64,000 nucleotides of DNA from the UHGV virus genome UHGV-1579991; one strand, 5' to 3'. The notes beneath the pieces are model-generated. The model saw only the letters and a program-made list of their open reading frames with translations. It was not told the origin of the DNA and made no database searches. This document shows positions 41,950-62,113 of the stretch, in pieces; positions within the stretch are counted from its first letter, which is position 1; each line of letters begins with the position of its first letter. The stretch comes from a virus. A program made the translations under genes and the position numbers.

Positions 41950-44900
41950 TCAATTACATGCTGAATGTCCGCAGTTGGTGCATCGAACACAGCCGTCAAA
42001 CTTGACCATGTCACCACCGCATTCAGGACACTTTGCATACATCTTTGAGCCATCTTGAATGTGTAGTTTCAATGCGCGACCAATTGCTTTGCAGAATGTG
42101 CCAACAGATGCAAAGCTTTTTGCAGTTTGGTCGACAATTTCACCAAGGTCGATGCCATTGCGAAGCATCGTTGAGTACAGTCGAGTAATTGTTTGCTGCT
42201 CATCTGAACCAAGACGTTCTGAGATATTGTCATAGTGTTGCAAGAATGACAAATTATCACCAAGCTTGTAGTGCTTCTTATCAGTCTTTGTGATTGTCGT
42301 TTGTTCAATGCCTTGCAACTTGTCAAATTCGTCTTTGTCAAGTTCAAATGCAAAGATTTCATAGGGTCGACCATCATCACAACCTACAAGAATACACCAC
42401 TTACGCTTATACACTGATACACAATACACTGCAGCAGGCAATACAGGTTTTCGTTTTGAGCGATGACCAGACTGCAAGACATGCGACTTATCCTTAGACT
42501 GCTTATCATCTTTTACGAGAACACCTGCACGTGAGCCATCTCGATAAATTGTGCAACCCTTGCAGCCAGATTTCCATGCAGTCAGATAAATTTCACGAAC
42601 AAGCTCTTTTGTTGCAGAGTTTGGAATATTGACTGTTACAGAAATTGATGAGTCAATGTACTTTTGCAACGCGCCTTGCAGTTTAACCTTGCCAATCCAG
42701 TCAACATCTTCAGTAGTTGCCTTATAGTATGGTGATTGAACAAGCAATTCATCAATGACTGCTTGCGAAGCATTTGACAACCAAGCTTTGATACGAGACA
42801 TTTCTGCTTCTGACCATTCAATGCCAGTATCTTTGACAAGGGTGAATTTGTCATCACCAAGCTGCACTCGTTTGCAAATCCACTGCATCAATGGGTAGTG
42901 AACTACAGCGTATTCAATGAACTTGTCACCAGTAGTCTCATCAATGAAGTTGATGTCTGCTTCATTATCAACTGCAGTAGGCTTTCGACGACGTTTGTGC
43001 AGTGGCATAAAAACAGGTTCAATGCCAGAAGTTGTCTGAGTCATCAAAGCTGTGGTGCCAGTTGGCGCAATTGTTGTTGTGTTGATGTTTCGACGACCAA
43101 ATTGTTGATAAGTTGTGATGTGCTCATCATCAATCAGTTCAGATAACATACGCTGAATGAACTTTGACTGCACATCTGTGTCATAGTCGAATATTGCAAA
43201 TGAGCCACGAATCTCTGCCAAGTCAATTGACGCTTCATAAGTCGCCTTTACAAGCCATTGTTGCATAGTGACTGCGAAGTCAATTGACTCTTGTGAACCA
43301 TAGCGCAAGCCAAGCATTGCCATTGCATCGCCAAGTGCAAGAAAGCCCATGCCATATCGACGAGTATTTGTCAATTTGTCATAGACTTTATGCCACAAGT
43401 CAAGCTCAGTTTTCTTAATGTCAAATGATTCTTTGTCTGATTCAACCTTTGCAATGATTCGTTGAACTGCTTCAATTTCAAGCTGCACAAGGTCATCCAT
43501 GATGACTGCACAGTCATATGTATCTTTGTAGAATGCTTCAAAGTCAAATGATGCATCAGCAGTCCAAGGATTAAGCACATATGCAGTCAAATTGCGATGT
43601 GATAAAATGCAGCTTGCATATGCTGCAAGAGGCTGTTCACCGCACTGCCTGTTGTTTACAAATACTTGCATATGTCTGTCATTTGTATCATTGACAGCGT
43701 CAAATGACCCTACAAAAAAGTTGTGATAATCATCTACAGTGCCATTATACACATCTTCTACACCATCAAGTTCAACAGTGTGTACCCTATGATTGTAGTA
43801 ATCTGCAAACTGCTTAAACTTTCTGTATGACGCATGAATAGCAGCGTCAACATTGTTAGATTTGCATTCATTTGCAAATTCTTCATAATTTGGTCGTTTG
43901 CCAAGTTTTTGCTTTGCTGCAGTATATACAAGCACTTGTTCTTTAGACCATTTTGCTTGCTGAGCTGCGTGGCCGCATTCGGCAGAACAATATGCAACTT
44001 CTCTATAAAACCAGTGCGCCCAAAATTCAGAGCCGCAATGTTCGCAAATACGTTTAACATACACTTGTTTGTCAACAAATTTAGTGTCATAGCCCATATT
44101 GCGAACTTTAATTGCTGTTGCTATGCATCTGCTATCAATGCCAACTAAATCAGGATATTTAACATTAGCGCGCGTTGCACAATGACTTAAAAATGCATCA
44201 ATAGAGCCAAATGTTTCTACTAATTTATTGTACCTGTAGCCAGACCATGCAACAGTATTATTGCCTGGCGCATAGCGCATATAGTATTCTAATTCTTTGC
44301 GACTAAGGCCTCTTCCAACTTTTGCAGTGCATTGCGTAACATAGTCTACAATTGATTGCACAGTTGTATCAATATCATATCTGCCATTACGTTCACCAGA
44401 AGTAGATGCACTCATTTTAGCAGAATACTGTGCAAAACGTTCTGCATTTGCTTTAATTTTGTATATTGGATTGTTAGTGCCTCTACGTTCAAGTGCATGT
44501 AATGCATCATGCTCTTTTTTGCTTAGTACTTGTAAGTTATTTGGGTCATTGTTTAATGAATTGCCATCGATATGATGCACTACTGTGTGTGTAGCATCAA
44601 ACTGTTCAGCATGACAGTATTCTGCTATTAAACGATGCTCAAACTTATATACACCATTATTCAACACTGCATAATATGGTGCAGATTTGCTATTTGTTTG
44701 ATAGCTAAGCACTTCATCAAATGAACATTGTTGTCTTGCAATAATTGCTAAGCTATCACCATGCTGTAATTGTCGTGCTTCTTTGTATGTGCCATCTGTT
44801 AACTTAAACTTGTGATTACCTGTGCAACGAATAACATCACCAGAATCAAGTGTAACTTTGTATATTTGCACATTTGAGCCTGTTTTGCGTGGATGCCGCA

Positions 44901-45936
44901 TTTTGCGTACAACTACATTATTGTTGTCATCATAGCAATACACATTAACATCATCGCCAATATCTGCAAGTTCACGTATTGTCATTGTTTGTCTGCCATC
45001 AGCAAGCATAACTTTAGTGCTGCCAACAATGCATGGATTTGTTGAGCGCTCTTCATACATTTTACCGTATGCTTTCGAGTTCGACTCTTCCATAATGCGG
45101 TCCCAAAAGAACACGCCGGGTTCTGCAGATGCCCATACATTGTCAACAATTTTGTCAAATAATGCTTTTGCATCTGATGTCTTATGCAGCTCTTGGCCAT
45201 CAGAGCCACGCCAAATATGTTCAAACTGCTGTTCTGCAAGCACTGCACGCATAAATGCATCAGTAAGCTTGATGGAAATGTTTGCACCTGTGATTTTTGT
45301 CAAGTCTTTTTTTGCGTCAATGAACTTATCTGCATCAGGATGCTCAATTGACAATGACAACATCAATGCGCCACGCCTGCCATTTTGTGCAACTTCTTTT
45401 GTCGATGTTGAAAAGCGTTCCATAAATGACACGACACCAGACGTCGTAATAGCACTGTTATGTACTTCTACGCCTTCTGGGCGAATATGCGACAAATCAT
45501 GGCCAACACCACCACGACGTTTCATCAACTGAACTTGCTCTTCATCTGTTTTGAAGATGCCGCCATATGAATCTGCATCATTGCCTATTACATAGCAATT
45601 TGACATTGATGTGTAACCGCCAAGACCGATACCAGCCATTGGAGAACCACCAAGTACAAATCGCTTAAATGGCTCAAGCAAATATGCAAGTCGCTCTTTT
45701 GACAATACACGTTTGCCTGTCTGTTCTTCAAATTGTGATTCTATACGGTCAAATTCATTGACCCAGCGCTCATGCATATCAGACAATGAGTGTTCATACA
45801 AATTGTCTTTGTCATGATGCAAGTATTTTGACATGCATATGTCAGCAGCCATTGAGTCGCCCGTAAATTCATGCGTCAGTGTAGTGTGCACTTCAGCATA
45901 TTCAGGCGACCCAATTTGAATGGGACGTTTTGTCAT
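41950..45936 (-). CDS. nrdJ: Ribonucleotide reductase, class II (adenosylcobalamin-dependent, NrdJ-like), interrupted in-frame by an intein
   Basis: Start at MTKRP (ATG 45936-45934); extein motifs STNP...CGEQPL (reconstitutes NPCGE), TIYRDGSR, C-terminal CPECGG...CTNCG zinc ribbon; total ORF 1328 aa is far longer than a typical RNR. Confidence 0.75.
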   Translation of the reverse strand: MTKRPIQIGSPEYAEVHTTLTHEFTGDSMAADICMSKYLHHDKDNLYEHSLSDMHERWVNEFDRIESQFEEQTGKRVLSKERLAYLLEPFKRFVLGGSPMAGIGLGGYTSMSNCYVIGNDADSYGGIFKTDEEQVQLMKRRGGVGHDLSHIRPEGVEVHNSAITTSGVVSFMERFSTSTKEVAQNGRRGALMLSLSIEHPDADKFIDAKKDLTKITGANISIKLTDAFMRAVLAEQQFEHIWRGSDGQELHKTSDAKALFDKIVDNVWASAEPGVFFWDRIMEESNSKAYGKMYEERSTNPCIVGSTKVMLADGRQTMTIRELADIGDDVNVYCYDDNNNVVVRKMRHPRKTGSNVQIYKVTLDSGDVIRCTGNHKFKLTDGTYKEARQLQHGDSLAIIARQQCSFDEVLSYQTNSKSAPYYAVLNNGVYKFEHRLIAEYCHAEQFDATHTVVHHIDGNSLNNDPNNLQVLSKKEHDALHALERRGTNNPIYKIKANAERFAQYSAKMSASTSGERNGRYDIDTTVQSIVDYVTQCTAKVGRGLSRKELEYYMRYAPGNNTVAWSGYRYNKLVETFGSIDAFLSHCATRANVKYPDLVGIDSRCIATAIKVRNMGYDTKFVDKQVYVKRICEHCGSEFWAHWFYREVAYCSAECGHAAQQAKWSKEQVLVYTAAKQKLGKRPNYEEFANECKSNNVDAAIHASYRKFKQFADYYNHRVHTVELDGVEDVYNGTVDDYHNFFVGSFDAVNDTNDRHMQVFVNNRQCGEQPLAAYASCILSHRNLTAYVLNPWTADASFDFEAFYKDTYDCAVIMDDLVQLEIEAVQRIIAKVESDKESFDIKKTELDLWHKVYDKLTNTRRYGMGFLALGDAMAMLGLRYGSQESIDFAVTMQQWLVKATYEASIDLAEIRGSFAIFDYDTDVQSKFIQRMLSELIDDEHITTYQQFGRRNINTTTIAPTGTTALMTQTTSGIEPVFMPLHKRRRKPTAVDNEADINFIDETTGDKFIEYAVVHYPLMQWICKRVQLGDDKFTLVKDTGIEWSEAEMSRIKAWLSNASQAVIDELLVQSPYYKATTEDVDWIGKVKLQGALQKYIDSSISVTVNIPNSATKELVREIYLTAWKSGCKGCTIYRDGSRAGVLVKDDKQSKDKSHVLQSGHRSKRKPVLPAAVYCVSVYKRKWCILVGCDDGRPYEIFAFELDKDEFDKLQGIEQTTITKTDKKHYKLGDNLSFLQHYDNISERLGSDEQQTITRLYSTMLRNGIDLGEIVDQTAKSFASVGTFCKAIGRALKLHIQDGSKMYAKCPECGGDMVKFDGCVRCTNCGHSACN
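43645..45033 (-). mobile_element. Intein (about 463 aa) with Hint blocks and an HNH endonuclease domain, apparently ending in Gln
   Basis: Begins at Cys after STNP (CIVGSTKVMLADGRQTMTIRELADIGDD, block A); block B GNHKFKLTDG; HNH motif VVHHIDGNSLNNDPNNLQVLSKKEHDALH; zinc-finger-like CEHCGSEF...CSAECGH; block F VYNGTVDDYHNFFVG; ends ...VFVNNRQ immediately before CGEQ. Confidence 0.65.
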
Positions 45937-45973
45937 TGTAACAGTGCATTTAAGTGTTTTAACAGTTTTATGT

Positions 45974-46007
45974 ATAAATTGTACAACAATGGGCAAAATT
46001 TTGCATC
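45974..46007 (-). promoter_or_regulatory. Promoter-like conserved motif containing TTGTACAA upstream of RNR
   Basis: Minus-strand GATGCAAAATTTTGCCCATTGTTGTACAATTTATAC. Confidence 0.5.
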
Positions 46008-48591: not shown

Positions 48592-49137
48592 TTAGCCTGC
48601 AAACTCATTGATTTTTAGGTCATTTGTCGTAACTGCAAAGCAATCAATGTGCAGCCATGTGACGTCTTTTTCTATACGACAACGATGCGGCAATTCATCT
48701 GCATGTTCTTTAATGAGCTTTCGCATTTCTGCAGCAGTCATATCTGCAGACTGACAATCAATTGCTGCACCATTACAATGAGCACTCAAATAAAGCTTGT
48801 TTGCAAGTGTCTTGTCTTTTGGGATTTGACAGATATTGCATCGTAAGCCCCGTTGACTCATTGTGCCACCTTTAGCCCAATTATTGACACACAACGGAAC
48901 TTTCAGCACAAACTTGCGTAATGCAAGCAGCAAGTCAAGCAGTTCTCTGTCAAGAAACTGCCAAGAATTATCGCCAAACTTGTCATAGCAATGTTTGCAT
49001 ACAAGTTCTTTTATGCTGAAGTACTGCTTAAGCTCTGCAATAACAGAGTCTCTTGAAGCACTTGCAATATCTGCAATGTTAGTTATGCTGTTGTTGCTGT
49101 TCATGTTGTCTGTCAAGTTCTTTGCATTTGCACTCAT
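48592..49137 (-). CDS. Putative endolysin, peptidase M15 / LAS-type zinc peptidase-like
   Basis: Motifs LSAHCNGAAIDC and WLHIDC; ATG at 49137-49135 (ORF-track start at 49197 is TTG). Confidence 0.5.
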   Translation of the reverse strand: MSANAKNLTDNMNSNNSITNIADIASASRDSVIAELKQYFSIKELVCKHCYDKFGDNSWQFLDRELLDLLLALRKFVLKVPLCVNNWAKGGTMSQRGLRCNICQIPKDKTLANKLYLSAHCNGAAIDCQSADMTAAEMRKLIKEHADELPHRCRIEKDVTWLHIDCFAVTTNDLKINEFAG

Positions 49138-49387
49138 TTCGTTCACCCATGACTTTTGTAATGCCTGCAGTTGCAAACATGCCTGCGACTGCACCAATTA
49201 TGCCTGCAACTGCGCCAAGCTGTTCAGTTGTTTTACCAGTTGCTACGACTTCCCATATGATAGCAAAACAAACAACGAGCAATATAAAGATGCCTATAAA
49301 AGTCACAGCTACAACAAAAAATGATTTGACTGACACACCTGTGTCATTCGTCACTAAGTTGCGCATTGTAAATTTGTTGTTATTCAT
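49079..49387 (-). CDS. Holin-like small membrane protein
   Basis: Two hydrophobic helices (FFVVAVTFIGIFILLVVCFAIIW; AVAGIIGAVAGMFATAGI), charged C-terminus, immediately upstream of the peptidase gene. Confidence 0.45.
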   Translation of the reverse strand: MNNNKFTMRNLVTNDTGVSVKSFFVVAVTFIGIFILLVVCFAIIWEVVATGKTTEQLGAVAGIIGAVAGMFATAGITKVMGERNECKCKELDRQHEQQQQHN

Positions 49388-49547: not shown

Positions 49548-51203
49548 TTATGCAAGCAATGTTTGCAGCATGTAGCAGCCTTTTGCATATGCGACAATTG
49601 CTTTTGCAGGGTTGTTCTTGATGTATGCAGGCAACTTGAGCCAAATCAATGCCACAAGCACTTTCTGTCGCAGCGTCAAATCAAGTTCATCAATGTTGTA
49701 GCCAATGACTTTTGCTCTGACGTCGCCATCAACATAATCGAATTGCTGATATGCTGACTGATTGAATACATCATAGCCAGACAAACCATATGCAAACTTT
49801 GCAATGTCATAATCGATGTCACCTGTCATCTTAACGTCACCAAAGTAGCCTCTGGGGTCAATGAACATGCATTTTGATGAATCTGCACTGAACATTGTAT
49901 TTGACGTATTCGGGTCACCATGAATGAATGACCAATTTTCGCATGCATAGTCAATTGAATCTTCTTGTGACAAGAAGAATCTTAACTTGCTCATCAGTTC
50001 ATCGAATGGCATCAATGCAATACCATTGAATGATTCGATGCCTGCTACAAGTGACTTGACTTCAGCATATCTTGCAATAGTAGTCTCAATGTACTCTTTG
50101 CGCATTGCGTCAATCATTTGCTGTCTGCTAACTGGCCAAATCTCGTCATTGTCAAGATTGCTTGCATGCAATTCATTGATTGACTGCTTGAATGTCGTCA
50201 TGCAGCCACGTGCAATTGTAGCATATCTACGCTCAATATCAACTTTGTTGAGGAACTGATGTACAGTCACTCCGTTAATTTTCGACATTTTGATGAAGTC
50301 TTCACCAGTTTCAAATATCGATGGAATGACTGTCGATTCTGCATTCATAGCATGACGATACCATTCTTGTTCTTTCTGAATGAGTGCCAAACCACGAGCA
50401 TTTGTAGCAGATTTCGTAACAATATCGCCATCAATGCTAATGCTATTGAAATACCGTACTTCATTATCACGTGCAGCCTTGACTGCTTCACTGACAAATG
50501 CTCCGCGTTCGCCATATGAATGACAGCCAGCAATTTCATATCTGTCTACAAATGTAACGTTGGTCATTAAATCAGCAAAATCAGCATTGTTATCATTATG
50601 CTGCATATCAATGACATTGTTATGAAACGCTGCAGGTACATAATATGCGCCAACAATGCCACTATGATATGTAGACTCATACAAATGGTCGAGCACATAT
50701 GCTTCTGCATCTGCATAAGACCCTACTTTGTAGAATGCATCAGTAGGAATGAGATGCAGTCTGCAATCAATGTCATTTGACGTGCAGCAAGTTATGCAGC
50801 CAGTTTTGAATTTGTCAAGTGGCAATTTAATGTCACCAAGCCATACGTCAGACCAGTGATAGAATACATTGCAGCCACCAATGTTGTTAGCAACATACAG
50901 TGCTACATCTGCGCATGCTTTTGCTGAGCCATCAGCTTTGTCATGCACAATAGTTGACAATTTGATATCTGGTGCAAATGCTGCAGCATGTTCATGAATC
51001 ATTGCTGCATGAGTGTCATTTGCACATGCAACAATGACTTCATCAAACTGTCGAGCATAGGATGTCAAAATTTTTGCGAGCACGGTTTGTTTGCCCGCAT
51101 TTACAAGAGTTTTAGGGATGTAATTGTTGCCAGTCATTGTTGACATGCGAGTGCCCAAACCACATGCAATGATTGCTAACACATTTGGATATTGATGAGA
51201 CAT
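49548..51203 (-). CDS. Bifunctional sugar-phosphate nucleotidyltransferase (N-terminal) and APH/choline-kinase-family kinase (C-terminal)
   Basis: Start at MSHQYPNV (ATG 51203-51201); NTP-transferase signature LAIIACGLGTRM...IPKTL; kinase motifs FIHGDPNTSNTMF and FIDPRGYFGD. Confidence 0.6.
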   Translation of the reverse strand: MSHQYPNVLAIIACGLGTRMSTMTGNNYIPKTLVNAGKQTVLAKILTSYARQFDEVIVACANDTHAAMIHEHAAAFAPDIKLSTIVHDKADGSAKACADVALYVANNIGGCNVFYHWSDVWLGDIKLPLDKFKTGCITCCTSNDIDCRLHLIPTDAFYKVGSYADAEAYVLDHLYESTYHSGIVGAYYVPAAFHNNVIDMQHNDNNADFADLMTNVTFVDRYEIAGCHSYGERGAFVSEAVKAARDNEVRYFNSISIDGDIVTKSATNARGLALIQKEQEWYRHAMNAESTVIPSIFETGEDFIKMSKINGVTVHQFLNKVDIERRYATIARGCMTTFKQSINELHASNLDNDEIWPVSRQQMIDAMRKEYIETTIARYAEVKSLVAGIESFNGIALMPFDELMSKLRFFLSQEDSIDYACENWSFIHGDPNTSNTMFSADSSKCMFIDPRGYFGDVKMTGDIDYDIAKFAYGLSGYDVFNQSAYQQFDYVDGDVRAKVIGYNIDELDLTLRQKVLVALIWLKLPAYIKNNPAKAIVAYAKGCYMLQTLLA

Positions 51204-51224
51204 TGTGTAGTGTTGTTTATATGA

Positions 51225-51258
51225 GAATATTGTACAATATGCATTGCTATTTTGCAAG
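51225..51258 (-). promoter_or_regulatory. Promoter-like conserved motif containing TTGTACAA
   Basis: Minus-strand CTTGCAAAATAGCAATGCATATTGTACAATATTC. Confidence 0.5.
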
Positions 51259-51504
51259 ATGACAATGCTTACGCCATACTGCAATTTCAACATCTGTAGC
51301 AAAATCAAAGTGCAAGCCATGCAATTGTTTCATGCCATATTGACGTCTTGCAATATACTTATTGCCAACTCGCTCAACAACGGAACCAATTTCTACTACA
51401 TTTTTAGAATGTCGTGGCTCATGTAATGGCACTCTGAATATGTATCTGCCATCTAATGTTGACATTATGTCACCATTATCAATTATGCCTGTTTGCCTGC
51501 TCAT
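51247..51504 (-). CDS. Hypothetical protein, 85 aa
   Basis: ORF. Confidence 0.35.
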   Translation of the reverse strand: MSRQTGIIDNGDIMSTLDGRYIFRVPLHEPRHSKNVVEIGSVVERVGNKYIARRQYGMKQLHGLHFDFATDVEIAVWRKHCHLAK

Positions 51505-51519
51505 TGTTAAAGCATCAAG

Positions 51520-52194
51520 TCATTTTTGAATGCCTACAAGTTCTGCAACAATTCTATTGTATGCTAATAAGTGCTTAGTTGCGTCATCAAGCAGCTTGTT
51601 AAATTCAAGATACTGCTGCAGCACTTTGTCATTATGCAATGACTGCTCAAGCGCAGCATAATCACCTGCAAACGGGCGATTCATTGACAGGCCAAAGTTC
51701 TTCGCACATTTAGCATAAAATGCATTGTACTCTGCAGCATCAATTGGTGTCGCGTCATGCGCATTAAGCGCACTTTTACTGAGCAATGGAATGCTGAGTT
51801 TTCTGCAACGAGTAAACTCATCTTTGTCGACATACAGCACAGAACAACGAACCACATGGTCTTCTGCATTCATGCCACCTGTCAACAAATCCATTTCCCA
51901 ATCGAAGCAAATGTTGTAGATGTACAGCATCACAGTTCGATGCTTGTTATCAACAAACTTCCAATATCGAGACTTTTTGCAGATAGCTTTGATATGCTGC
52001 AAGTCATGCATAAACTTATCATGCGATATCGCATCAAAGCGAGGCAATGATTTGTTGTCAATGAATGCGTTTGCTGCATCTGCACAACGTTTGAATTCTG
52101 CTTGATGCATATTCAGCTCTTCTATGCGCTTTGCTACAAGCGCTTCATATTCTGCTTTTGCAAGAGCAAGTCTTGCTTCATACAAACTTTGCAT
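51520..52194 (-). CDS. Hypothetical protein, 224 aa
   Basis: ORF. Confidence 0.45.
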   Translation of the reverse strand: MQSLYEARLALAKAEYEALVAKRIEELNMHQAEFKRCADAANAFIDNKSLPRFDAISHDKFMHDLQHIKAICKKSRYWKFVDNKHRTVMLYIYNICFDWEMDLLTGGMNAEDHVVRCSVLYVDKDEFTRCRKLSIPLLSKSALNAHDATPIDAAEYNAFYAKCAKNFGLSMNRPFAGDYAALEQSLHNDKVLQQYLEFNKLLDDATKHLLAYNRIVAELVGIQK

Positions 52195-52219
52195 ATTTGT
52201 GTATGTTTATGAGTTTCTG

Positions 52220-52675
52220 TTAAAATTTGCCATCTGCTACTTGAAAGCATCGATAGCCAAGCTCTCGCCATTTAGCGACCATGGAATCGCGGTCTTCAAG
52301 CACAAATGCAATTTGTTGCAGTTCGTCTTCAGACAATGCTTCTACAAGCAATTCAGGTTTGACAAGCGTATCATGACGTTTATCACCATCTTTTCGCATA
52401 AGAATTTGCGGATTAACGATTCTGTAATCTGTATGCTGTGCAAGCCAAACTTCTGTCATTTGTCTGCAGCTTTCACGACGGCCTGTGCAGAATATGATTC
52501 TATAGCCAACTTGCTGCAAATCGCAAAGCAAGTCAAGCACAGTCATAATAGGCTTGTCTTCATAACAGTGTGCATAAAATGCATCCCAATCTTTGTTTTG
52601 CTGTTGAAGATATTTTAGACGGTCGCCAACTTTTGAAATTGTTCCGTCAATGTCGCATATGATGATATTTGCCAT
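52220..52675 (-). CDS. HAD-superfamily phosphatase
   Basis: Motif I IICDIDGT, motif II FCTGRR, acidic motif DGDKRHD / EDRD. Confidence 0.6.
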   Translation of the reverse strand: MANIIICDIDGTISKVGDRLKYLQQQNKDWDAFYAHCYEDKPIMTVLDLLCDLQQVGYRIIFCTGRRESCRQMTEVWLAQHTDYRIVNPQILMRKDGDKRHDTLVKPELLVEALSEDELQQIAFVLEDRDSMVAKWRELGYRCFQVADGKF

Positions 52676-52693
52676 GATGTGTATGCTTATGAA

Positions 52694-52719
52694 AGGAAGA
52701 GCTCAATTGAGCTCTTCCT
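52694..52719 (-). terminator. Perfect hairpin downstream of 52750-53622
   Basis: aggaagagctc-AATT-gagctcttcct; core AGCTCAATTGAGCT shared with hairpin at 57019-57046. Confidence 0.45.
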
Positions 52720-52749
52720 GATAGTCAACTTGATAAACCTCTACGAAAA

Positions 52750-53622
52750 TCAAGCTTGACTACTTTTGTTGATTACGAGATACTTGTATCGTTCTTTGAT
52801 TGTGATGTTCTTTGATTTTGCCGCCTCGATTTCTTTGCGTTCCTTGGAGGAATAGTTGAACTTAATGTAGTCGGAGAACAATTCGGGCTTATCTGCTACT
52901 TCATTGTTCTTGACTTCTTTTACAAGAGTTTGCTGAAACTCATTGATTGTAGTGAAACCAAGGAATGACTGGAACTTGTTAAGCGGAAACAGCTTATCTG
53001 TGTTGTCCTCGAATGTCGGGAATTCGTCGGAATACGTAATTTCGATTTGGTCTACGAAATATCTAAGTTTTTCCCAAGGTTCCTTGCCAATGAGGAGAAT
53101 GTTCTGATGGTCAAGTTTTTCCTCGAACATTTCCAGGAGACATTCGTATGATTTTACGAGACGAACTCCAGGATATGTAATTGATGCAATTGAACGAGGT
53201 TTGTGAGTCGTCTTGACTTCTTTATTGTATGTTTCCTCGTCGATGCAATAGATGTATCGCTTGACCTTGTCGTATTCTTTCGGAAGATAGTTGTTGTCAA
53301 GGAATTGCTTGTCAACTACAATGAAACTGAAAGGATAGAGTTCATTGAATCGTTGACGAAGCTGTTCTGTTGCAAGGAAGAAATGCGAGCCATCTTTTGC
53401 TGCAAATTCCATATTTGAATTGCATCCTGCATATGCAATGTATCTGTTTCGCTTCCATTTGAGGAATCGACTTACCAGGTTCTTTTCGAAGATGTCCTTG
53501 TATTTGAAGTAGGTGTCCCAGTACTCCTTAACAATTCCATCTTGCATTTTTCTTGACAATTTTGAATTGTCTACCGGCCTATCAGTAAAAACTGATGGTT
53601 TGTTTGCGTTGTATAATCCCAT
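52750..53622 (-). CDS. Hypothetical Lys/Glu-rich protein with codon usage unlike neighbouring genes; candidate transferase of the sugar module (function unassigned)
   Basis: 290-aa ORF; visibly different codon choice (frequent GAG, AAG, TTC, AGG-containing context) compared with the GCA/CAA-rich flanking genes. Confidence 0.5.
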   Translation of the reverse strand: MGLYNANKPSVFTDRPVDNSKLSRKMQDGIVKEYWDTYFKYKDIFEKNLVSRFLKWKRNRYIAYAGCNSNMEFAAKDGSHFFLATEQLRQRFNELYPFSFIVVDKQFLDNNYLPKEYDKVKRYIYCIDEETYNKEVKTTHKPRSIASITYPGVRLVKSYECLLEMFEEKLDHQNILLIGKEPWEKLRYFVDQIEITYSDEFPTFEDNTDKLFPLNKFQSFLGFTTINEFQQTLVKEVKNNEVADKPELFSDYIKFNYSSKERKEIEAAKSKNITIKERYKYLVINKSSQA

Positions 53623-53643
53623 TGTAGTAGAGGTTTGTTAATT

Positions 53644-53691
53644 TATTATTTATAGATATATAATACTACGACAATGCAAATTTTGCACTGT
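53644..53691 (-). promoter_or_regulatory. Promoter-like conserved motif
   Basis: Minus-strand CAGTGCAAAATTTGCATTGTCGTAGTATTATATATCTATAAATAAT. Confidence 0.55.
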
Positions 53692-53717
53692 CGTAGCATA
53701 AAAGTTTACACATTTTT

Positions 53718-54056
53718 TTACAAATGCGAGAACAACTTATTCGTAACTCGTTCAATTGCAAATTCAACACCATATTGCAACAACTGTTCAGTGCTAAATG
53801 CTTTTGCTGCATGCGCAGGCGCAATATGCTTTGTCTGTGCATACAAAGTCCAAGTATCAGTTGGCCTGTCATAAGTAACTGTCAGTCTGTATGTTTGCAA
53901 CACAAACTCTTGACTAAAGTATTCTCTTCGCCAAAACTCTGGTTCTGCAATATGCAAATCAAGCCAAGCAAACTCAAACAGAATTTGTTTAAGTTGACGT
54001 TGATGCTTACGTTCAGCACGATATGTGCCACTAAACAGATACTTGATGATGTTCAT
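53718..54056 (-). CDS. Hypothetical protein, 112 aa
   Basis: ORF. Confidence 0.4.
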   Translation of the reverse strand: MNIIKYLFSGTYRAERKHQRQLKQILFEFAWLDLHIAEPEFWRREYFSQEFVLQTYRLTVTYDRPTDTWTLYAQTKHIAPAHAAKAFSTEQLLQYGVEFAIERVTNKLFSHL

Positions 54057-54075
54057 TTATTTAAGTTTTGTGTTA

Positions 54076-55062
54076 TTATACTACAGCAGACAATTGTTGC
54101 AATGTTGACTGCATAACGTCATCAGTTACAAATAATTCGTTTTCAGTGAACACATAAAATTTTAAGCCATGTTGTTTTGCATATTGCACTGCTGCAGTAG
54201 ATTTTTTACGTACTGCATCACAAAATGCATATGCACATGGCTTAATTTCTATTAGCAATCCATATGTAGGCAAATAGAAATCTACAATGTATTTATGATG
54301 CCCATTGTATGGCACTGCAACAGTTTCATATTCATATTGAATGCCAAGACGTTCTAATGTCAATACAAAATGAGTTTCATAACTACTGCGTGTATGCAAT
54401 TGCGTTGGCATTGCAATAGAATGACATTTTACACACTGCTGAACAAGTACTAATGCGCGTTTGCCCTTACCACAGTTTTGCATTTTGCCATTTTGCATTG
54501 CTCGTGCAACACCTGCAGCAACGTGCATAGCAAATGATGGGTCTTCTTTATATTTTCGTCGTAACCCTGCAGATACACGAGACTTAAAGTCTGGGTCTTC
54601 TGCATAGCGTCTGTTCAAACCAGCAGTTACTCGTTGGCTAAATGTCGGGTCATTCACTACAGCAACCATTGCTTTTCGCGTGCCAATTGACACATTTTTA
54701 CATCGAGTTTCATCTCGCCATACTTTAGACATAGATGCTGTCCAGCGTTTAACATATTCAGGGTCATCAAACGCATGTTTTGCGCGACAGCATTTACAAA
54801 CATTATTAAAGTAGCCATATCTAATGCCTATGTATGCTATAGCAGCCCCACAATATTTGCAATGTTTTGCTGCGTCATCATACAATAGATATTTGTCATA
54901 GTAGTCTTGTTCATGCATATTAACAGATTGTAATGCTCTGCGTATTGTGCATGATGTACACCATTTGTTAAGCTCTGGTACATAATACTCATAACGTTGC
55001 TGCCCCTTTGGTGTTATTCGTGCAAGTCTTTTATATTCCGGATGATATGTAGGATTTTTCAT
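54076..55062 (-). CDS. Free-standing homing-endonuclease-like protein (family B): Cys-rich N-terminus, NUMOD3-like repeats, C-terminal PD-(D/E)xK core
   Basis: Repeats PTFSQRVTAGLNRRY / PDFKSRVSAGLRRKY / PSFAMHVAAGVARAM; nuclease core YIVDFYLPTYGLLIEIKP. Confidence 0.5.
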   Translation of the reverse strand: MKNPTYHPEYKRLARITPKGQQRYEYYVPELNKWCTSCTIRRALQSVNMHEQDYYDKYLLYDDAAKHCKYCGAAIAYIGIRYGYFNNVCKCCRAKHAFDDPEYVKRWTASMSKVWRDETRCKNVSIGTRKAMVAVVNDPTFSQRVTAGLNRRYAEDPDFKSRVSAGLRRKYKEDPSFAMHVAAGVARAMQNGKMQNCGKGKRALVLVQQCVKCHSIAMPTQLHTRSSYETHFVLTLERLGIQYEYETVAVPYNGHHKYIVDFYLPTYGLLIEIKPCAYAFCDAVRKKSTAAVQYAKQHGLKFYVFTENELFVTDDVMQSTLQQLSAVV

Positions 55063-55156
55063 AGAATATGTATATGCACGTTATGCACCAGGATGCACAA
55101 ACAAAAACTCACAGTAACTATGTATAGTTACTGTGAGTTATCACAACATGCTTTAA

Positions 55157-55879
55157 TTAGTTATCATGCACAGCAGCTATATAACGGCCTTGCGAATCCA
55201 AATGAATCGCAGTTTGCATTGTAATTTCTGGCTGCGCTTTGTTGTGTTGTTGCTCTGCATCATATTCACGTCGCAACCCACCATTCGGATGACATAGGTA
55301 AAACCTATCAAAATCTGTACCCAACTGTTCAGCGACAGACAGCATAATATTGTCGCCTACAAGCTGAGATGCTAGCAGAGAATTTGTTGGGATTCGTGGA
55401 TTGCGTGAGTCCTCGTCAATTGCTGGCAATGATACAAGCAAGTCTGCCCAAGCATTCATATCAGTGACCTTGCCACCGGCAAAGTTGATGCCAATGATTT
55501 GACAATTCGGTGCAAGCAATTCACGATGTTCACGAAGATATGTCATTGCAGTTGCAAGTTCAGATGTGTTGCCAGTTTTGCTGAATGCTACAATAACATC
55601 GTTGTTTCGAATCATGCCAAAGTCACCATGCATTGCATGCACTGCATCAAAGAATGATGCGTTCAATGACAAGCAATAACATGTTGCAGCAAGTTTTTCA
55701 CAGCAATGCACATTTTTGCCGATGCCAGTGAACAACACTTTGCCATCAGACTTCAATGCATTTGCAATGATATCTGCTGCAATGCCAAGAACATCATATT
55801 GCGCATCTGAAATGTTGTTGTGCCATGCTACAAGCGATTCAACTGATGCAGCAATGCCTTTGTGTACAAGTGTTTTCAT
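55157..55879 (-). CDS. SIS-domain sugar-phosphate isomerase, arabinose-5-phosphate isomerase (KdsD/KpsF)-like
   Basis: VLFTGIGKN, FFDAVHAMHGDFGMIRNNDVIVAFSKTGNTSEL, PTNSLLASQLVGDNI, FYLCHPNGGL follow the KdsD-type SIS pattern. Confidence 0.6.
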   Translation of the reverse strand: MKTLVHKGIAASVESLVAWHNNISDAQYDVLGIAADIIANALKSDGKVLFTGIGKNVHCCEKLAATCYCLSLNASFFDAVHAMHGDFGMIRNNDVIVAFSKTGNTSELATAMTYLREHRELLAPNCQIIGINFAGGKVTDMNAWADLLVSLPAIDEDSRNPRIPTNSLLASQLVGDNIMLSVAEQLGTDFDRFYLCHPNGGLRREYDAEQQHNKAQPEITMQTAIHLDSQGRYIAAVHDN

Positions 55880-55897
55880 TTTGTGATGTTTGAAGGT

Positions 55898-56578
55898 TCA
55901 AAAAAACTTAAGTTTTGATAGCATTTCAGTGTCTTGTTCTGTGTTGATGCCAAGCTCTTGCATGACATCAAGCAATGCAGACCATAATTGCTCATATGAT
56001 TTGCCGCTGTTCATAACAACAGCGTCAACAAACAACTCGTCGATATATTGTTCACTTGAATGATTGATGCTTTGCTTGACATCGTCATTGATAATTTTAA
56101 TGAGTTTGAAGCCTCTTGAACGCAATGCGGTCGCTTCATTTGGATATCGACAATCGCCAACACAAATAAGAGCTTCATTATGACAATTGTCAAGTCGATA
56201 CAGCAAACTGTTTACAAAGAAGTCTTCACCATACAGTTTCTTGAGCGCATCTGAAACATCAAGATGCACATTGCGAATCGATGAACCTGCAAACTCTACA
56301 AAGTGTTTCTGTTTGAATGCATTGTTATGCAAGTCTTGCAAATTGTAGCCCAGTGTACTTGCAATAAATGCTTTCAGTGGCTTTGCAAAGCACTCATATG
56401 CAAGATTGCAGCCACATGACCAGTATGGATTCGCTTCAATTTGCTGTAAAGTTGATGTGTAAATGCCATCAACTACAGTGAACTTGCATTTAGTCATGAC
56501 TCGAATCATCGCCCAAGCCAAATCTTTGCCTACGCCTGCATGACCAACAAGCGCAATTTTTGTTATGTCATCATTCAT
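55898..56578 (-). CDS. P-loop kinase, dNMP kinase-like (T4 gp1-like)
   Basis: Walker A KIALVGHAGVGKD and overall arrangement resembling T4 deoxynucleotide monophosphate kinase. Confidence 0.5.
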   Translation of the reverse strand: MNDDITKIALVGHAGVGKDLAWAMIRVMTKCKFTVVDGIYTSTLQQIEANPYWSCGCNLAYECFAKPLKAFIASTLGYNLQDLHNNAFKQKHFVEFAGSSIRNVHLDVSDALKKLYGEDFFVNSLLYRLDNCHNEALICVGDCRYPNEATALRSRGFKLIKIINDDVKQSINHSSEQYIDELFVDAVVMNSGKSYEQLWSALLDVMQELGINTEQDTEMLSKLKFF

Positions 56579-56960
56579 TGCACCACTGTTTAAGAGTCAC
56601 AAAATTGTTGAAGTCTGCATAAAAGTCATCGCCACCGTTAAGCATTGCGACATTCTCAAGTTCATTGAGAATGATTTGCTTATCAATGACTATTGCAAGA
56701 GCGTCAAAGTCTTCTTTTGATTGCAAGTCAAGTAGCACAGGATGACCTTTGAGTCTTGTAGTTAATGTTGCTGGCAGTCTATGCACAGACTTCTTTTTCT
56801 TTGACTGCGTAGGATGTTTTGAGCGCTTTCTTGTAGCAGTCAGCTGAATATCATAATCAATTTCAAGCAAACCTGCATCTTGCATTACAAAATTGAGATT
56901 AACATGCACAGGATGCTTTTGCTGAATGTCTATGAATTCTTGTAATTTGTCGTTTATCAT
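56571..56960 (-). CDS. Hypothetical protein (start at MINDKLQEF)
   Basis: ATG 56960-56958 just downstream of promoter motif. Confidence 0.4.
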   Translation of the reverse strand: MINDKLQEFIDIQQKHPVHVNLNFVMQDAGLLEIDYDIQLTATRKRSKHPTQSKKKKSVHRLPATLTTRLKGHPVLLDLQSKEDFDALAIVIDKQIILNELENVAMLNGGDDFYADFNNFVTLKQWCNE

Positions 56961-56973
56961 TTGAAATGCATTT

Positions 56974-57014
56974 GTATATGATAATTGTACCACGCATGCA
57001 TCAACTTTGCACAC
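56974..57014 (-). promoter_or_regulatory. Promoter-like conserved motif
   Basis: Minus-strand GTGTGCAAAGTTGATGCATGCGTGGTACAATTATCATAT. Confidence 0.55.
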
Positions 57015-57018
57015 AAAA

Positions 57019-57046
57019 CAAGACCAGCTCAATTGAGCTGGTCTTG
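57019..57046 (-). terminator. Rho-independent terminator
   Basis: caagaccagctc-AATT-gagctggtcttg followed on minus strand by TTTTGTGTG. Confidence 0.6.
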
Positions 57047-57064
57047 CGGTCATATGTAGACTTC

Positions 57065-59851: not shown

Positions 59852-60874
59852 TCATTGTTGTTTATGCCAGCCATATGATGCCTGACCAGCATCATACACT
59901 TCTACAAAACCATGGTCGTACATAAAATCTTCATTACGAGTGCCCTTGCCACCATTAGTGCCAAGAATACGGTCTGCACCATGCATAAGTAGCATGTTAT
60001 TTGTGACATGTTGCTTTGTCAGCATATTGAACCAGTGTTTGCTATATGACAAACCAAGACCATCAAAGCCCAGCTTTGTGTACACACCACCGTCAAACTT
60101 GCTTAAATCACAATATGATAACACAGATTCAGGGTCATATGTCTTGATAAAGTGCTTAAAGATTCGTTCAGCACCACCAACAACTTTGGTTGCTGCACAA
60201 AGACGTAGCAATTCATATTGATAGCGCTTATTGTATCGTGGACGACCAAATGTCATAAGTTGATGAATGACATAACCACCAAGCAACTCAAGTGGATGAC
60301 CTTCAATCAACGCAAGATTGATAAAATTGCCTGAGCACTTGCCTTGCAAATGATGTTCAATCAAAAATTGATTTGCAGTATACTTGTCAATTTCAACAAC
60401 TTTAAGCTTGCGAGCATATACAATCTTTGATTTGTCTACGATTTGATGCTTGATGTGATTGATAACTTTCTTGGCGTCATCCCAATCCCACACATGAATA
60501 CAATGAAAGCCTGCAGCTTTTGCAATGTCTGTTTTCTTTGCATGAACATCACAAGGCAAATGTGCATCTTTTGCATCATGCATAAACAAGTGCTCAAATG
60601 AATGCGTACTGTTATGCGAAAATGCAGGATTGATGTTAATGACAATATTGTCATGTCGAAAATCGAAGACTTCATCACCAATGACAAAGTTGCGCTCAAA
60701 ATCTATACCGACATGTTTGAGCAACACTTGATGCCACACGTCTTTATAGGCTGATTCAAGCTTGCTTAGCTCATCACAGTTTGCAATGTTTTTGTAACGT
60801 TGAATAGCAGCATCAAAGTCAAGATTGACTTCAGCGTAGTCTGCATTTTTATCATAGTGAAATTTTGAGCTCAT
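59852..60874 (-). CDS. Homing-endonuclease-like protein with N-terminal PD-(D/E)xK-like domain related to the C-terminal domain of family A
   Basis: Start at MSSKFHYDK (ATG 60874-60872); IVININPAFSHNSTH...GFHCIHVWDWDD. Confidence 0.45.
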   Translation of the reverse strand: MSSKFHYDKNADYAEVNLDFDAAIQRYKNIANCDELSKLESAYKDVWHQVLLKHVGIDFERNFVIGDEVFDFRHDNIVININPAFSHNSTHSFEHLFMHDAKDAHLPCDVHAKKTDIAKAAGFHCIHVWDWDDAKKVINHIKHQIVDKSKIVYARKLKVVEIDKYTANQFLIEHHLQGKCSGNFINLALIEGHPLELLGGYVIHQLMTFGRPRYNKRYQYELLRLCAATKVVGGAERIFKHFIKTYDPESVLSYCDLSKFDGGVYTKLGFDGLGLSYSKHWFNMLTKQHVTNNMLLMHGADRILGTNGGKGTRNEDFMYDHGFVEVYDAGQASYGWHKQQ

Positions 60875-60890
60875 GCGTATAATTTTGTGT

Positions 60891-60935
60891 ATATAATTAT
60901 TGTACAACATGCAAATGCACATTGCATTTGATACA
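60891..60935 (-). promoter_or_regulatory. Promoter/operator element shared by homing-endonuclease genes
   Basis: Minus-strand GCAATGTGCATTTGCATGTTGTACAATAATTATATAC; near-identical element at 62041-62085. Confidence 0.5.
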
Positions 60936-60965: not shown

Positions 60966-62027
60966 TTATTTTGTATTGCTACGCGTCATTGTTAAATGAC
61001 CGCAATCATACACATCAACTTCTGTTTTGCCAAGCATACATGTATGACAATTTATTTTGAAATCTGCTGCAGTGTAATCAGGATAGTTTAGCGGAGATTC
61101 TTTTGACAAATCAATTTCAATTGTGTCAGTAGTTTTAAGTTGTTCAGTGCCTGCAATGATATCTGCAATAAGATTGATAACTTCTTCTTGTGAATCCCAA
61201 TCAAACACAGTTATGCAACGATAGCCTGCATCAAGTGCAAGTTTTGTTTTGTTGTAATGGTATTGAGCACCAATAACATTGTTGTCTTTTGCTCGACCAG
61301 TTAAATATGCAAAACTAACAGTGCAGTTGTGCGTAACTGTTGGACAAATTTCTATAAGTAACTTTGCAGGCTCATACTGCAAATCATATGTTTGATTATT
61401 GATGTTAAACTCGTACTGTGTATCAATTGCCAACTGTCGTAATAACGCATCATGCCACATCATATTACATTTAGAAATTGTTTTGGATGACAATCTGCAT
61501 TGCGGCAATTGACATGGCCAATCTACGCCGTACATTTGTTGTGTTGTTTGACGCATTTTGTTAACATCACCAAAATGATTGCCATATCGATGCTCTTTGG
61601 TTTTAAGCGACTGCTCAATATTGACATTGCCTACACAACCATAACGTTCAAGTTTTGTTGCAGCAGTTTTGCTAACATCACCATGCCCATTGCCAAATTT
61701 GGCGACTTTAGTTGCAAGTATTTTATGACTTGGGCCAAATGCATTGCCATACAATTCTTGTTTAGTCGCAAGCATTTTGTCGATATTACAACCAGCGCCA
61801 TAAGTGTTATGCATAGTTTGCATACGTTGTCGAATAAATTTTGGCACAGATAAAGGACTTTCTACACCATATTTGCGTAAGCAACTGATTTTGCATGCGT
61901 ACTTTTGCTTGATGACAGAATGTGCATTTCGACGTCCTATGTAAGTGTTTTCTGATGTAGCAGCAAGCTCTGCATCTCTAAGAACTTCAAGTGCAGCAAT
62001 TCGTGCTTCAATTTCTTCAGATGTCAT
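60966..62027 (-). CDS. Free-standing homing-endonuclease-like protein (family A paralog)
   Basis: N-term EEIEARIAALEVLRD, YG repeats (ELYGNAFG, ERYGCVGN, HRYGNHFGD), C-term LLIEICPTVTHN...GYRCITVFDWD. Confidence 0.5.
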   Translation of the reverse strand: MTSEEIEARIAALEVLRDAELAATSENTYIGRRNAHSVIKQKYACKISCLRKYGVESPLSVPKFIRQRMQTMHNTYGAGCNIDKMLATKQELYGNAFGPSHKILATKVAKFGNGHGDVSKTAATKLERYGCVGNVNIEQSLKTKEHRYGNHFGDVNKMRQTTQQMYGVDWPCQLPQCRLSSKTISKCNMMWHDALLRQLAIDTQYEFNINNQTYDLQYEPAKLLIEICPTVTHNCTVSFAYLTGRAKDNNVIGAQYHYNKTKLALDAGYRCITVFDWDSQEEVINLIADIIAGTEQLKTTDTIEIDLSKESPLNYPDYTAADFKINCHTCMLGKTEVDVYDCGHLTMTRSNTK

Positions 62028-62040
62028 TTTTTATCATATT

Positions 62041-62085: not shown

Positions 62086-62113
62086 TGACTTAGCTTGTAC
62101 AGTTTGCAAAAAA

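What the first reader, a model, noticed from the sequence alone, without database searches (positions are those of the whole stretch)
49548..56578. Candidate NDP-sugar biosynthesis / DNA hypermodification module
Within 7 kb lie a KdsD-type SIS isomerase (55157-55879), a HAD phosphatase (52220-52675), a fused nucleotidyltransferase plus APH-type kinase (49548-51203), a compositionally atypical Lys-rich protein (52750-53622) and a dNMP kinase (55898-56578). Together these could make a pentose phosphate, dephosphorylate it, phosphorylate the anomeric carbon and activate it to an NDP-sugar. In a T4-like phage that also encodes DHFR and dNMP kinase, the most economical reading is sugar decoration of hydroxymethylated DNA bases (T4 glucosyl-hmC is the precedent; arabinosylated hmC has been reported in some T4-like phages), with the Lys-rich protein or 51520-52194 as the untested transferase. 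The fused nucleotidyltransferase-kinase architecture and the SIS isomerase in a phage are unusual either way.
Basis: partly seen in the sequence, partly recalled or inferred. Interest (0 to 1): 0.85.

Follow-up and report, generated by a model that had tools for sequence, protein, structure and literature searches.

The report
Phage UDP-arabinose pathway for DNA decoration
A large human-gut phage carries two clear homologues of the enzymes that RB69-type phages use to make UDP-arabinose for sugar-coating their DNA cytosines, so the module is a distant new copy of a recently solved pathway, but its sugar-attaching enzyme and modified base were not found.

Summary
The genes exist exactly where the finding places them, all on the minus strand and tightly packed. 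Two are homologues of the phage UDP-D-arabinofuranose pathway described in 2025-26 for RB69, DLP3 and HY126. The first is a fused nucleotidyltransferase plus kinase (AfhE / RB69 gp53:52 type) at 49548-51203. The second is a SIS-only arabinose-5-phosphate isomerase at 55157-55879.

Three points in the finding need correcting.
- The HAD phosphatase (52220-52675) is of the polynucleotide-kinase 3'-phosphatase type. It is not a homologue of AfhF/RB69 gp51.
- The Lys-rich protein (52750-53622) is predicted to have a dihydrofolate-reductase fold, not a glycosyltransferase fold.
- 54076-55062 is a mobile endonuclease insertion.

The phage is not a Straboviridae member. It is a roughly 175-kb gut phage whose nearest cultured relatives are Chryseobacterium phages MA9V-1/2.

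I found no ThyA-family base-modifying enzyme, no glycosyltransferase and no dCTPase in the 88 kb of this genome I could read. About 87 kb stayed out of reach. MA9V-1, whose genome is complete, pairs the same sugar genes with a hydroxymethylase-type ThyA homologue.

Verdict: a known kind of system in a new lineage with one swapped part. DNA as the acceptor is inferred, not shown. Interest is moderate.

The parts
49548..51203 (-). Fused sugar-1-phosphate nucleotidyltransferase (N-terminal) plus sugar kinase (C-terminal). Homologue of AfhE / RB69 gp53:52 / Thanatos TH1_060.
   Evidence: phrog_4098 E 1.5e-76 over residues 49-589 of the longer ORF. Pfam NTP_transferase E 4.9e-5. phmmer to RB69 gp52 E 1.5e-29 and gp53 E 1.7e-7. 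tblastn finds 372 phage records, mostly Straboviridae, best hit Chryseobacterium phage MA9V-1 at 30%. Motifs GxGTR (RB69: GLATR), IPK, VTK, HGDxxxxN and IDPRGxFG are shared with RB69 gp53:52.
51247..51504 (-). 85-aa ORF of unknown function
   Evidence: Called as a gene on metagenome contigs. Found only in near-identical relatives.
51520..52194 (-). 224-aa orphan protein with predicted long terminal helices. Function unknown.
   Evidence: No Pfam, PHROG or NCBIfam hit. Only 3 homologues at 89-92% identity in 5.8 billion proteins. AF2 pLDDT 51.
52220..52675 (-). Stand-alone HAD phosphatase of the polynucleotide-kinase 3'-phosphatase type. Candidate, by position only, for the Ara-1,5-P2 to Ara-1-P step.
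   Evidence: Pfam HAD_PNKP E 9.5e-31, profile positions 2-143 of 143. PDB 4xrp Pnkp1 E 3.8e-15 and T4 Pnk 1ltq E 2.2e-8. No alignment to RB69 gp51; only a weak partial phrog_1238 hit, E 4.5e-4.
52750..53622 (-). Lys-rich 290-aa protein with a predicted dihydrofolate-reductase-like fold. Belongs to a tiny family restricted to this phage clade. Role unknown.
53718..54056 (-). 112-aa ORF of unknown function
   Evidence: No family hit. Conserved in near-identical contigs.
54076..55062 (-). 328-aa endonuclease-like protein. A mobile insertion, not part of the pathway.
   Evidence: phrog_22215 E 1e-19; weaker PHROG hits to Holliday junction resolvase (E 1.2e-10) and endonuclease (E 2.4e-8) families and sub-threshold Pfam hits to Phage_endo_I and TnsA-like endonuclease, all on the C-terminal part. 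The gene is absent from the 96-98%-identical IMG/VR contigs L011 and L012, where the isomerase gene abuts the 112-aa ORF.
55106..55139 (-). 15-bp-stem hairpin followed by a T run, between the isomerase gene and the inserted endonuclease gene
   Evidence: Consensus scan only. The number of such sites is not above the shuffled expectation.
55157..55879 (-). SIS-domain-only arabinose-5-phosphate isomerase (KdsD/GutQ type without CBS domains), as in RB69 gp55
   Evidence: Pfam SIS E 5.3e-8. TIGR00393 E 2.5e-19 and KdsD/GutQ models about 1e-18, all below the equivalog cut-offs. phrog_5670 E 5.3e-26. RB69 gp55 E 7.2e-15. PDB 5uqi, 2xhz, 3etn. MA9V1_175 at 38% identity.
55898..56578 (-). T4 gp1-like dNMP kinase
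   Evidence: phrog_139 E 5.5e-27. Pfam DNMK partial, E 2.1e-5, below cut-off. P-loop GHAGVGKD visible in the translation. No PDB sequence hit.
56571..57053 (-). 160-aa ORF of unknown function, overlapping the kinase gene start by 8 nt
   Evidence: no credible family hit.

Best explanation
The module makes an activated pentose, most likely UDP-D-arabinofuranose, by the route worked out for coliphage HY126 and assigned by homology to RB69 and DLP3.
1. The isomerase (55157-55879) converts host ribulose-5-phosphate to arabinose-5-phosphate.
2. The C-terminal kinase half of the fused enzyme (49548-51203) phosphorylates C1, giving arabinose-1,5-bisphosphate.
3. A phosphatase removes the 5-phosphate.
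4. The N-terminal nucleotidyltransferase half couples arabinose-1-phosphate to UTP.

Shown here: homology of the isomerase and of both halves of the fused enzyme, with catalytic motifs intact.

Inferred:
- The substrates.
- That the neighbouring PNKP-type HAD (52220-52675) performs the phosphatase step in place of the unrelated AfhF.
- That the sugar ends up on a modified cytosine in phage DNA.
- That the gp1-like dNMP kinase (55898-56578) helps feed a modified dCMP into the dNTP pool.

The base-modifying ThyA homologue and the transferase are not in the 88 kb read. If they exist, they must lie in the unseen half of the genome.
For: - Full-length match of the fused enzyme to phrog_4098 and to both RB69 gp52 and gp53.
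- Nucleotidyltransferase and kinase motifs conserved across the window, two gut relatives, MA9V-1 and RB69.
- The isomerase is homologous to RB69 gp55 and to solved arabinose-5-phosphate isomerases.
- Isomerase-then-fused-enzyme gene order recurs in RB69, MA9V-1 and this window.
- The biochemistry of AfhE and AfhF and the arabinosyl-5-hydroxycytosine product are reported in PMC13326640, citing He et al. 2026 and Mahler et al. 2025.
- The complete genome of the nearest cultured relative, MA9V-1, combines these sugar genes with a cytosine-type ThyA homologue (N177D) next to a thymidylate-kinase-like gene.
- In gut relative L018, a nucleotide pyrophosphatase (phrog_9236, E 2.1e-29) follows the fused enzyme directly.
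- The genes are tightly packed on one strand among nucleotide-metabolism genes.
Against: - No ThyA homologue, glycosyltransferase or dCTPase was found from window-equivalent -8 kb to +80.6 kb.
- Six of the eight IMG/VR scans (five targeted at ThyA or its expected neighbours, one walking step) never found one on the two near-identical 175-kb contigs.
- The HAD is unrelated to AfhF and looks like a nucleic-acid 3'-phosphatase.
- Close relatives L018 and L020 have the fused enzyme without an isomerase or HAD within 10 kb.
- Identity to RB69 gp53:52 is only 28%, so sugar specificity could differ.
Confidence: 0.6

Rival explanations
1. The module does make an NDP-pentose, but the acceptor is not DNA. 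The sugar would decorate virion proteins or alter host surface polysaccharide during infection.
For: No base-modifying enzyme or DNA glycosyltransferase was found in 88 kb of the genome. The module lies between structural genes (capsid at 62374-63957) and lysis-like genes (48592-49197, phrog_894).
Against: Every characterised homologue of the fused enzyme serves DNA arabinosylation (PMC13326640; Thanatos). Neighbours include a dNMP kinase and ribonucleotide reductase. MA9V-1 has a cytosine-type ThyA homologue. No glycosyltransferase of any kind was found nearby either.
Confidence: 0.15
2. The genes are neighbours without a shared pathway. The HAD would be a polynucleotide 3'-phosphatase for nucleic-acid end repair. 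The isomerase would be an auxiliary metabolic gene. The fused enzyme would activate some other substrate.
For: The HAD matches the full PNKP phosphatase profile and the T4 Pnk phosphatase domain. A second RNA-repair-type HAD and a tRNA cluster lie in the window. Relatives L018 and L020 lack the isomerase and HAD near the fused enzyme.
Against: Isomerase and fused enzyme are adjacent in three distant lineages. Catalytic motifs are conserved with RB69 gp53:52. No kinase or ligase partner for a repair function sits beside the HAD.
Confidence: 0.15
3. The module is a Kdo / LPS-capsule pathway (KdsD, KdsC-like phosphatase, cytidylyltransferase).
For: The isomerase belongs to the KdsD/GutQ subfamily, and a HAD is present.
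Against: No KdsA or KdsB homologue was found among the window ORFs of 120 aa or more scanned against Pfam. The HAD is PNKP-type, not KdsC-type. The nucleotidyltransferase is fused to a kinase, exactly as in AfhE.
Confidence: 0.03

Closest known systems
Afh-type arabinosyl-5-hydroxycytosine system of Straboviridae (RB69 gp45-55, Acinetobacter phage DLP3 gp76-83, coliphage HY126 AfhE/AfhF)
   Same: The fused nucleotidyltransferase-kinase and the SIS-only arabinose-5-phosphate isomerase are homologous and lie in the same order. A HAD phosphatase and a dNMP kinase are also encoded.
   Different: The HAD belongs to another HAD subfamily (PNKP-type) with no detectable similarity to gp51/AfhF. No D169N ThyA homologue, GT-B arabinosyltransferase, Tmk-like kinase or dCTPase was seen in the region read. 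The host phage belongs to a different, non-Straboviridae lineage.
Chryseobacterium phage MA9V-1 (OR050627): genes 172-178 plus 087-088
   Same: Nearest cultured relative (capsid 39%, fused enzyme 30%, isomerase 38% identity). It carries the same DHFR-fold family member, the isomerase and the fused enzyme in one neighbourhood.
   Different: MA9V-1 has no PNKP-type HAD there. Its ThyA homologue (N177D, D169 retained) is of the hydroxymethylase type rather than the RB69 hydroxylase type. Nothing about its DNA chemistry was found in the literature searched.
Shewanella phage Thanatos pentosyl-cytosine system (TH1_060, TH1_062, TH1_063)
   Same: TH1_060 is a 561-aa protein with the same two-domain layout. 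Knocking it out nearly abolishes propagation.
   Different: Thanatos is a Straboviridae relative. Its ThyA homologue and glycosyltransferase candidate lie next to the fused enzyme, unlike here.
T4 glucosyl-hydroxymethylcytosine system (gp42, gp1, gp56, alpha- and beta-glucosyltransferases)
   Same: A gp1-like dNMP kinase is present, and the logic is the same: a modified dCMP followed by sugar transfer.
   Different: T4 uses host UDP-glucose and encodes no sugar-activation enzymes.

Membership tests
Phage UDP-arabinose / arabinosyl-cytosine (Afh, RB69-type) system | Bifunctional arabinose-5-phosphate 1-kinase / arabinose-1-phosphate uridylyltransferase (AfhE; RB69 gp53:52) | tested here: met
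   phrog_4098 E 1.5e-76. RB69 gp52 E 1.5e-29 and gp53 E 1.7e-7. Catalytic motifs conserved. Homology only; enzyme activity was not tested.
Phage UDP-arabinose / arabinosyl-cytosine (Afh, RB69-type) system | Phage-encoded SIS-only arabinose-5-phosphate isomerase near the fused enzyme | tested here: met
   phrog_5670 E 5.3e-26. RB69 gp55 E 7.2e-15. PDB isomerases 5uqi, 2xhz, 3etn. It lies 4 kb upstream on the same strand; about 1 kb of that gap is a mobile insertion.
Phage UDP-arabinose / arabinosyl-cytosine (Afh, RB69-type) system | AfhF / RB69 gp51-type HAD phosphatase | tested here: not met
   BLASTP finds no alignment between the window HAD and RB69 gp51, and phmmer with gp51 finds nothing in the window. 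A different, PNKP-type HAD is present. Whether it substitutes functionally is untested.
Phage UDP-arabinose / arabinosyl-cytosine (Afh, RB69-type) system | ThyA-family 5-hydroxy-dCMP synthase (D169N and N177D signature) | tested here: inconclusive
   Absent from the window and from flanking loci L006, L010 and L108. Not hit on the 175-kb IMG/VR contigs by motif scans. About 87 kb of the genome could not be read.
Phage UDP-arabinose / arabinosyl-cytosine (Afh, RB69-type) system | GT-B DNA arabinosyltransferase(s) | tested here: inconclusive
   No Pfam glycosyltransferase hit in the window ORFs of 120 aa or more that were scanned, and none in the subset also scanned against PHROGs. No phmmer hit to RB69 gp3, gp46 or gp47 in the window or in complete MA9V-1. 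The rest of the genome is unseen.
Phage UDP-arabinose / arabinosyl-cytosine (Afh, RB69-type) system | Arabinosylated cytosine replacing C in virion DNA | not testable with these tools
   Requires LC-MS or NMR of virion DNA.
Glycosyltransferase (GT-A or GT-B), as proposed for 52750-53622 | GT-A or GT-B fold | tested here: not met
Glycosyltransferase (GT-A or GT-B), as proposed for 51520-52194 | GT-A or GT-B fold | tested here: inconclusive
   AF2 mean pLDDT 51 with a 4-sequence alignment, too poor to search. No family hit.
Dihydrofolate reductase (PF00186), for 52750-53622 | Sequence membership and the NADPH/folate-binding motifs | tested here: not met
   The fold matches. However, there is no Pfam hit in 15 family members and hhalign against the window's own DHFR gives 0.4% probability. 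By my reading of alignment A1 against the model's secondary structure, the GG motif before helix F reads G-[KR]-x-x-W and no conserved acid sits in helix B (inference).
Kdo biosynthesis (KdsD-KdsA-KdsC-KdsB) | KdsA synthase and KdsB cytidylyltransferase alongside the isomerase | tested here: not met
   No such Pfam hit in any scanned window ORF.
Polynucleotide kinase-phosphatase (T4 PseT / Pnkp), for 52220-52675 | HAD 3'-phosphatase domain joined to a P-loop 5'-kinase domain | tested here: inconclusive
   The phosphatase domain is met (HAD_PNKP E 9.5e-31; PDB 4xrp and 1ltq). The 151-aa protein has no kinase domain.

The most novel reading that the evidence does not exclude
This clade of gut and Bacteroidota-associated large phages (window phage, MA9V-1 and relatives) may attach arabinose, or another pentose, to 5-hydroxymethylcytosine rather than 5-hydroxycytosine. 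The base would come from the hydroxymethylase-type ThyA homologue seen in MA9V-1. The transferase would be unrelated to the RB69 GT-B enzymes, and a PNKP-type HAD would have been recruited as the sugar-bisphosphate phosphatase. The clade-restricted DHFR-fold protein could be a new accessory enzyme of the pathway.
Probability: 0.15. Interest if true: 0.7.

Novelty: new variant of a known kind. Interest (0 to 1): 0.45.

Why it matters
If the inference holds, DNA arabinosylation extends beyond Straboviridae into an uncultured human-gut phage lineage that is only distantly T4-like. Such DNA would resist many restriction and CRISPR nucleases and could be base-called poorly by nanopore sequencing. 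That bears on gut-virome surveys, host-range prediction and phage engineering.

The swapped phosphatase, and the missing RB69-type transferase even in the complete MA9V-1 genome, suggest the pathway was assembled more than once from different parts. MA9V-1 is cultured, so it offers an immediate experimental handle on whether a true pentosyl-hydroxymethylcytosine exists.

Tried and rejected
**Hunt for a ThyA homologue in this phage's genome**
- phmmer with RB69 gp48 and MA9V1_088 against all six-frame ORFs of the window and of flanking loci L006, L010, L011, L012 and L108 found nothing.
- An IMG/VR peptide-pattern scan with a three-sequence ThyA alignment returned 80 loci, none on the window phage's contigs.
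- A hand-made degenerate DNA motif gave 0 hits.
- Attempts to jump via conserved neighbours missed the target contigs: helicase, SbcCD-like protein and a baseplate-like protein.
- A profile search of 5.8 billion proteins listed the best 120 of 466 ThyA-like proteins. The five I looked up (P0065, P0078, P0054, P0116, P0104) all sit in other phages.

**Other dead ends**
- One walking step to the right reached only the portal, protease and lysozyme genes.
- GATC is almost absent from the window (3 observed against 171 expected), which I first read as evidence against DNA modification. I rejected this because arabinosylated RB69 avoids GATC too (23 against 163).
- The DHFR-fold protein sits next to the fused enzyme in L018 and near it in L020 and MA9V-1. 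I considered this functional evidence but discounted it, because all four are one clade with conserved gene order.
- The 1068-aa protein at 38630-41836 was checked as a possible transferase carrier and dropped: it has only weak, partial similarity to unannotated proteins.
- The afdb50 fold library was unavailable.


Full report
**What is there.** Window 49.5-57.1 kb holds eleven minus-strand genes separated by -8 to 95 nt. Independent gene calls on several human-gut metagenome contigs give the same boundaries, including the 551-aa start at 51203. The finding's coordinates and domain guesses are therefore correct.

**The fused enzyme (49548-51203).**
- It has a Pfam NTP_transferase N-terminus (E 4.9e-5).
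- It matches phrog_4098 over its whole length (E 1.5e-76).
- phmmer links its two halves to RB69 gp53 (E 1.7e-7) and gp52 (E 1.5e-29).
- tblastn finds homologues in 372 phage records, mostly RB69/JS98-type coliphages and their Acinetobacter, Klebsiella and Vibrio relatives. The best hit is Chryseobacterium phage MA9V-1 at 30%.
- In an alignment with RB69 gp53:52, MA9V1_178 and two gut relatives, five motifs are conserved in all five sequences, apart from GLATR for GxGTR in RB69. These are the nucleotidyltransferase G-x-G-T-R and IPK motifs, the kinase VTK lysine, the HGDxxxxN catalytic loop and the IDPRGxFG metal loop.

**The other enzymes.**
- 55157-55879 is a single-SIS-domain KdsD/GutQ-type isomerase. 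It is homologous to RB69 gp55 (E 7.2e-15) and to solved arabinose-5-phosphate isomerases.
- 55898-56578 is a gp1-like dNMP kinase (phrog_139, E 5.5e-27).

**What is known.** Lee et al. (NAR 2026, PMC13326640) show that RB69 and DLP3 replace cytosine with mono- to tri-arabinosylated 5-hydroxycytosine. The earlier arabinosyl-hydroxymethylcytosine assignment for RB69 is thereby revised. The 5-hydroxy-dCMP is made by a ThyA homologue recognisable by D169N.

Citing He et al. 2026 and Mahler et al. 2025, they describe UDP-arabinofuranose synthesis in three enzyme steps:
1. An arabinose-5-phosphate isomerase.
2. A bifunctional kinase/pyrophosphorylase, AfhE (RB69 gp52:53), which first makes arabinose-1,5-bisphosphate.
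3. A HAD phosphatase, AfhF (RB69 gp51), which removes the 5-phosphate.

GT-B enzymes then transfer the sugar. Shewanella phage Thanatos has the same fused protein, TH1_060.

Two of the window's genes are thus clear homologues of this pathway. The isomerase-then-fused-enzyme order recurs in RB69, MA9V-1 and here. Because these are very distant lineages, I take this as good evidence that the two genes work together.

**Corrections to the finding.**
1. *The HAD.* It matches the whole Pfam HAD_PNKP profile (E 9.5e-31) and the phosphatase domains of Pnkp1 and T4 Pnk. It has no detectable similarity to RB69 gp51. Its role as the sugar-bisphosphate phosphatase rests on position alone, and a nucleic-acid 3'-phosphatase role is a live alternative.
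3. *The 224-aa ORF.* It is an orphan and its model is unusable.
4. *The 328-aa endonuclease.* It is missing from the 96-98%-identical IMG/VR contigs, so it is a mobile insertion that splits the module.

**Which phage.**
- The capsid protein's best matches are Chryseobacterium phages MA9V-1/2 (39%), Sphingomonas phage PAU and Tenacibaculum phages, with Lak phages more distant.
- The window also holds a T4-type terminase, DHFR, NAD ligase, clamp loader, type II topoisomerase, an intein-bearing ribonucleotide reductase and seven tRNAs.
- It maps onto contigs of 175-181 kb from human-gut samples.
- Gene order is largely colinear with MA9V-1.
- It is therefore only remotely T4-like, and it is not a Straboviridae member.

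**The missing half.**
- No ThyA homologue, glycosyltransferase or dCTPase is detectable from window-equivalent -8 kb to +80.6 kb.
- I spent all remaining collection scans trying to reach the other ~87 kb and failed (look-ups). The key refutation test stays open.
- Indirect support comes from relatives:
  - The complete MA9V-1 genome has a canonical ThyA. It also has a second, 447-aa ThyA homologue beside a thymidylate-kinase-like gene. This homologue has Asp at the N177 position, which indicates cytosine specificity, but keeps D169.
  - The same signature is found in all MA9V-like long homologues examined. This points to a hydroxymethylase rather than the RB69-type hydroxylase.
  - In gut relative L018, a nucleotide pyrophosphatase follows the fused enzyme directly.
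  - MA9V-1 has no RB69-type GT-B detectable by phmmer, so the transferase of this clade is unidentified.

**Judgement.**
- Most likely (0.6): the module supplies UDP-arabinose, or a close pentose analogue, for cytosine glycosylation of phage DNA. The PNKP-type HAD would stand in for AfhF.
- Rivals: a non-DNA acceptor (0.15); unlinked functions for the HAD, the isomerase and the fused enzyme (0.15); and a Kdo pathway (0.03, excluded for the window by the lack of KdsA/KdsB).
- Novelty: this is a known kind of system found in a new lineage with at least one non-orthologous part. I rate it a new variant of a known kind, of moderate interest.
- The most novel reading still open is a genuine pentosyl-hydroxymethylcytosine made with a new transferase (probability about 0.15).

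Noticed in passing
whole window; also loci L006, L018, L020, L108: GATC (3 observed against 171 expected) and CTAG (2 against 62) are almost absent. TGCA occurs 1149 times against 232 expected from base composition, about one per 56 bp. Close relatives show the same pattern. RB69 also avoids GATC, so this says nothing about DNA modification.
   Followed up: partly
window 54076-55062: The 328-aa endonuclease-like gene is present here and in L010 but absent from near-identical IMG/VR contigs L011 and L012. It is probably a homing endonuclease inserted between the isomerase gene and the 112-aa ORF. A strong hairpin with a T run (55139-55106) lies just upstream.
   Followed up: partly
window 3445-4719, 16935-17867, 59852-60922, 60966-62027: Four paralogous ORFs, three with weak DUF7487 matches. 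All are hit by the same ORFs of relative L018 (E 1e-27 to 1e-57). This is a multi-copy, possibly mobile, gene family.
   Followed up: no
window 41950-45996: The ribonucleotide reductase is interrupted by an intein that carries an HNH endonuclease domain.
   Followed up: no
window 28909-30524: A cluster of seven tRNA genes (Gly, Thr, Glu, Ser, Leu, Pro, Gln). ARAGORN also makes a starred tmRNA call (28909-29351) that overlaps a 178-aa ORF and may be spurious.
   Followed up: no
window 31038-31535: A second HAD-family gene, matching the 'Swiss Army Knife' RNA-repair HAD domain (E 2.1e-14). Together with the PNKP-type HAD, it hints at a nucleic-acid repair capacity.
   Followed up: no
L018 12722-13126 (gut relative, ENA ERZ14235894 NODE_91): A 134-aa nucleotide pyrophosphatase (phrog_9236, E 2.1e-29) lies directly after the fused nucleotidyltransferase-kinase. 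This relative has no isomerase or HAD within 10 kb.
   Followed up: partly
L022 2740-3681 and 5021-6172 (MT837767, human faecal contig); L024 and L025 are 98-99% identical to it: A different, smaller gut phage (contigs of 45-64 kb). It carries a hydroxymethylase-type ThyA homologue near a 383-aa protein whose N-terminus is an RB69 gp51/AfhF-type HAD (phrog_1238, E 2.7e-28). It may be another sugar-modifying phage.
   Followed up: no
MA9V-1 (OR050627) 72188-78161; L104 8179-11257: A conserved trio lies upstream of a helicase: an unannotated 365-456-aa protein (labelled KDO-8-P phosphatase in GenBank but with no Pfam or PHROG hit), a thymidylate-kinase-like gene, and a long ThyA homologue. The first protein is a candidate for the clade's missing transferase or phosphatase.
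   Followed up: partly
window 62001-64000: GC content rises to 0.49 over the capsid gene, against about 0.40 elsewhere in the window.
   Followed up: no
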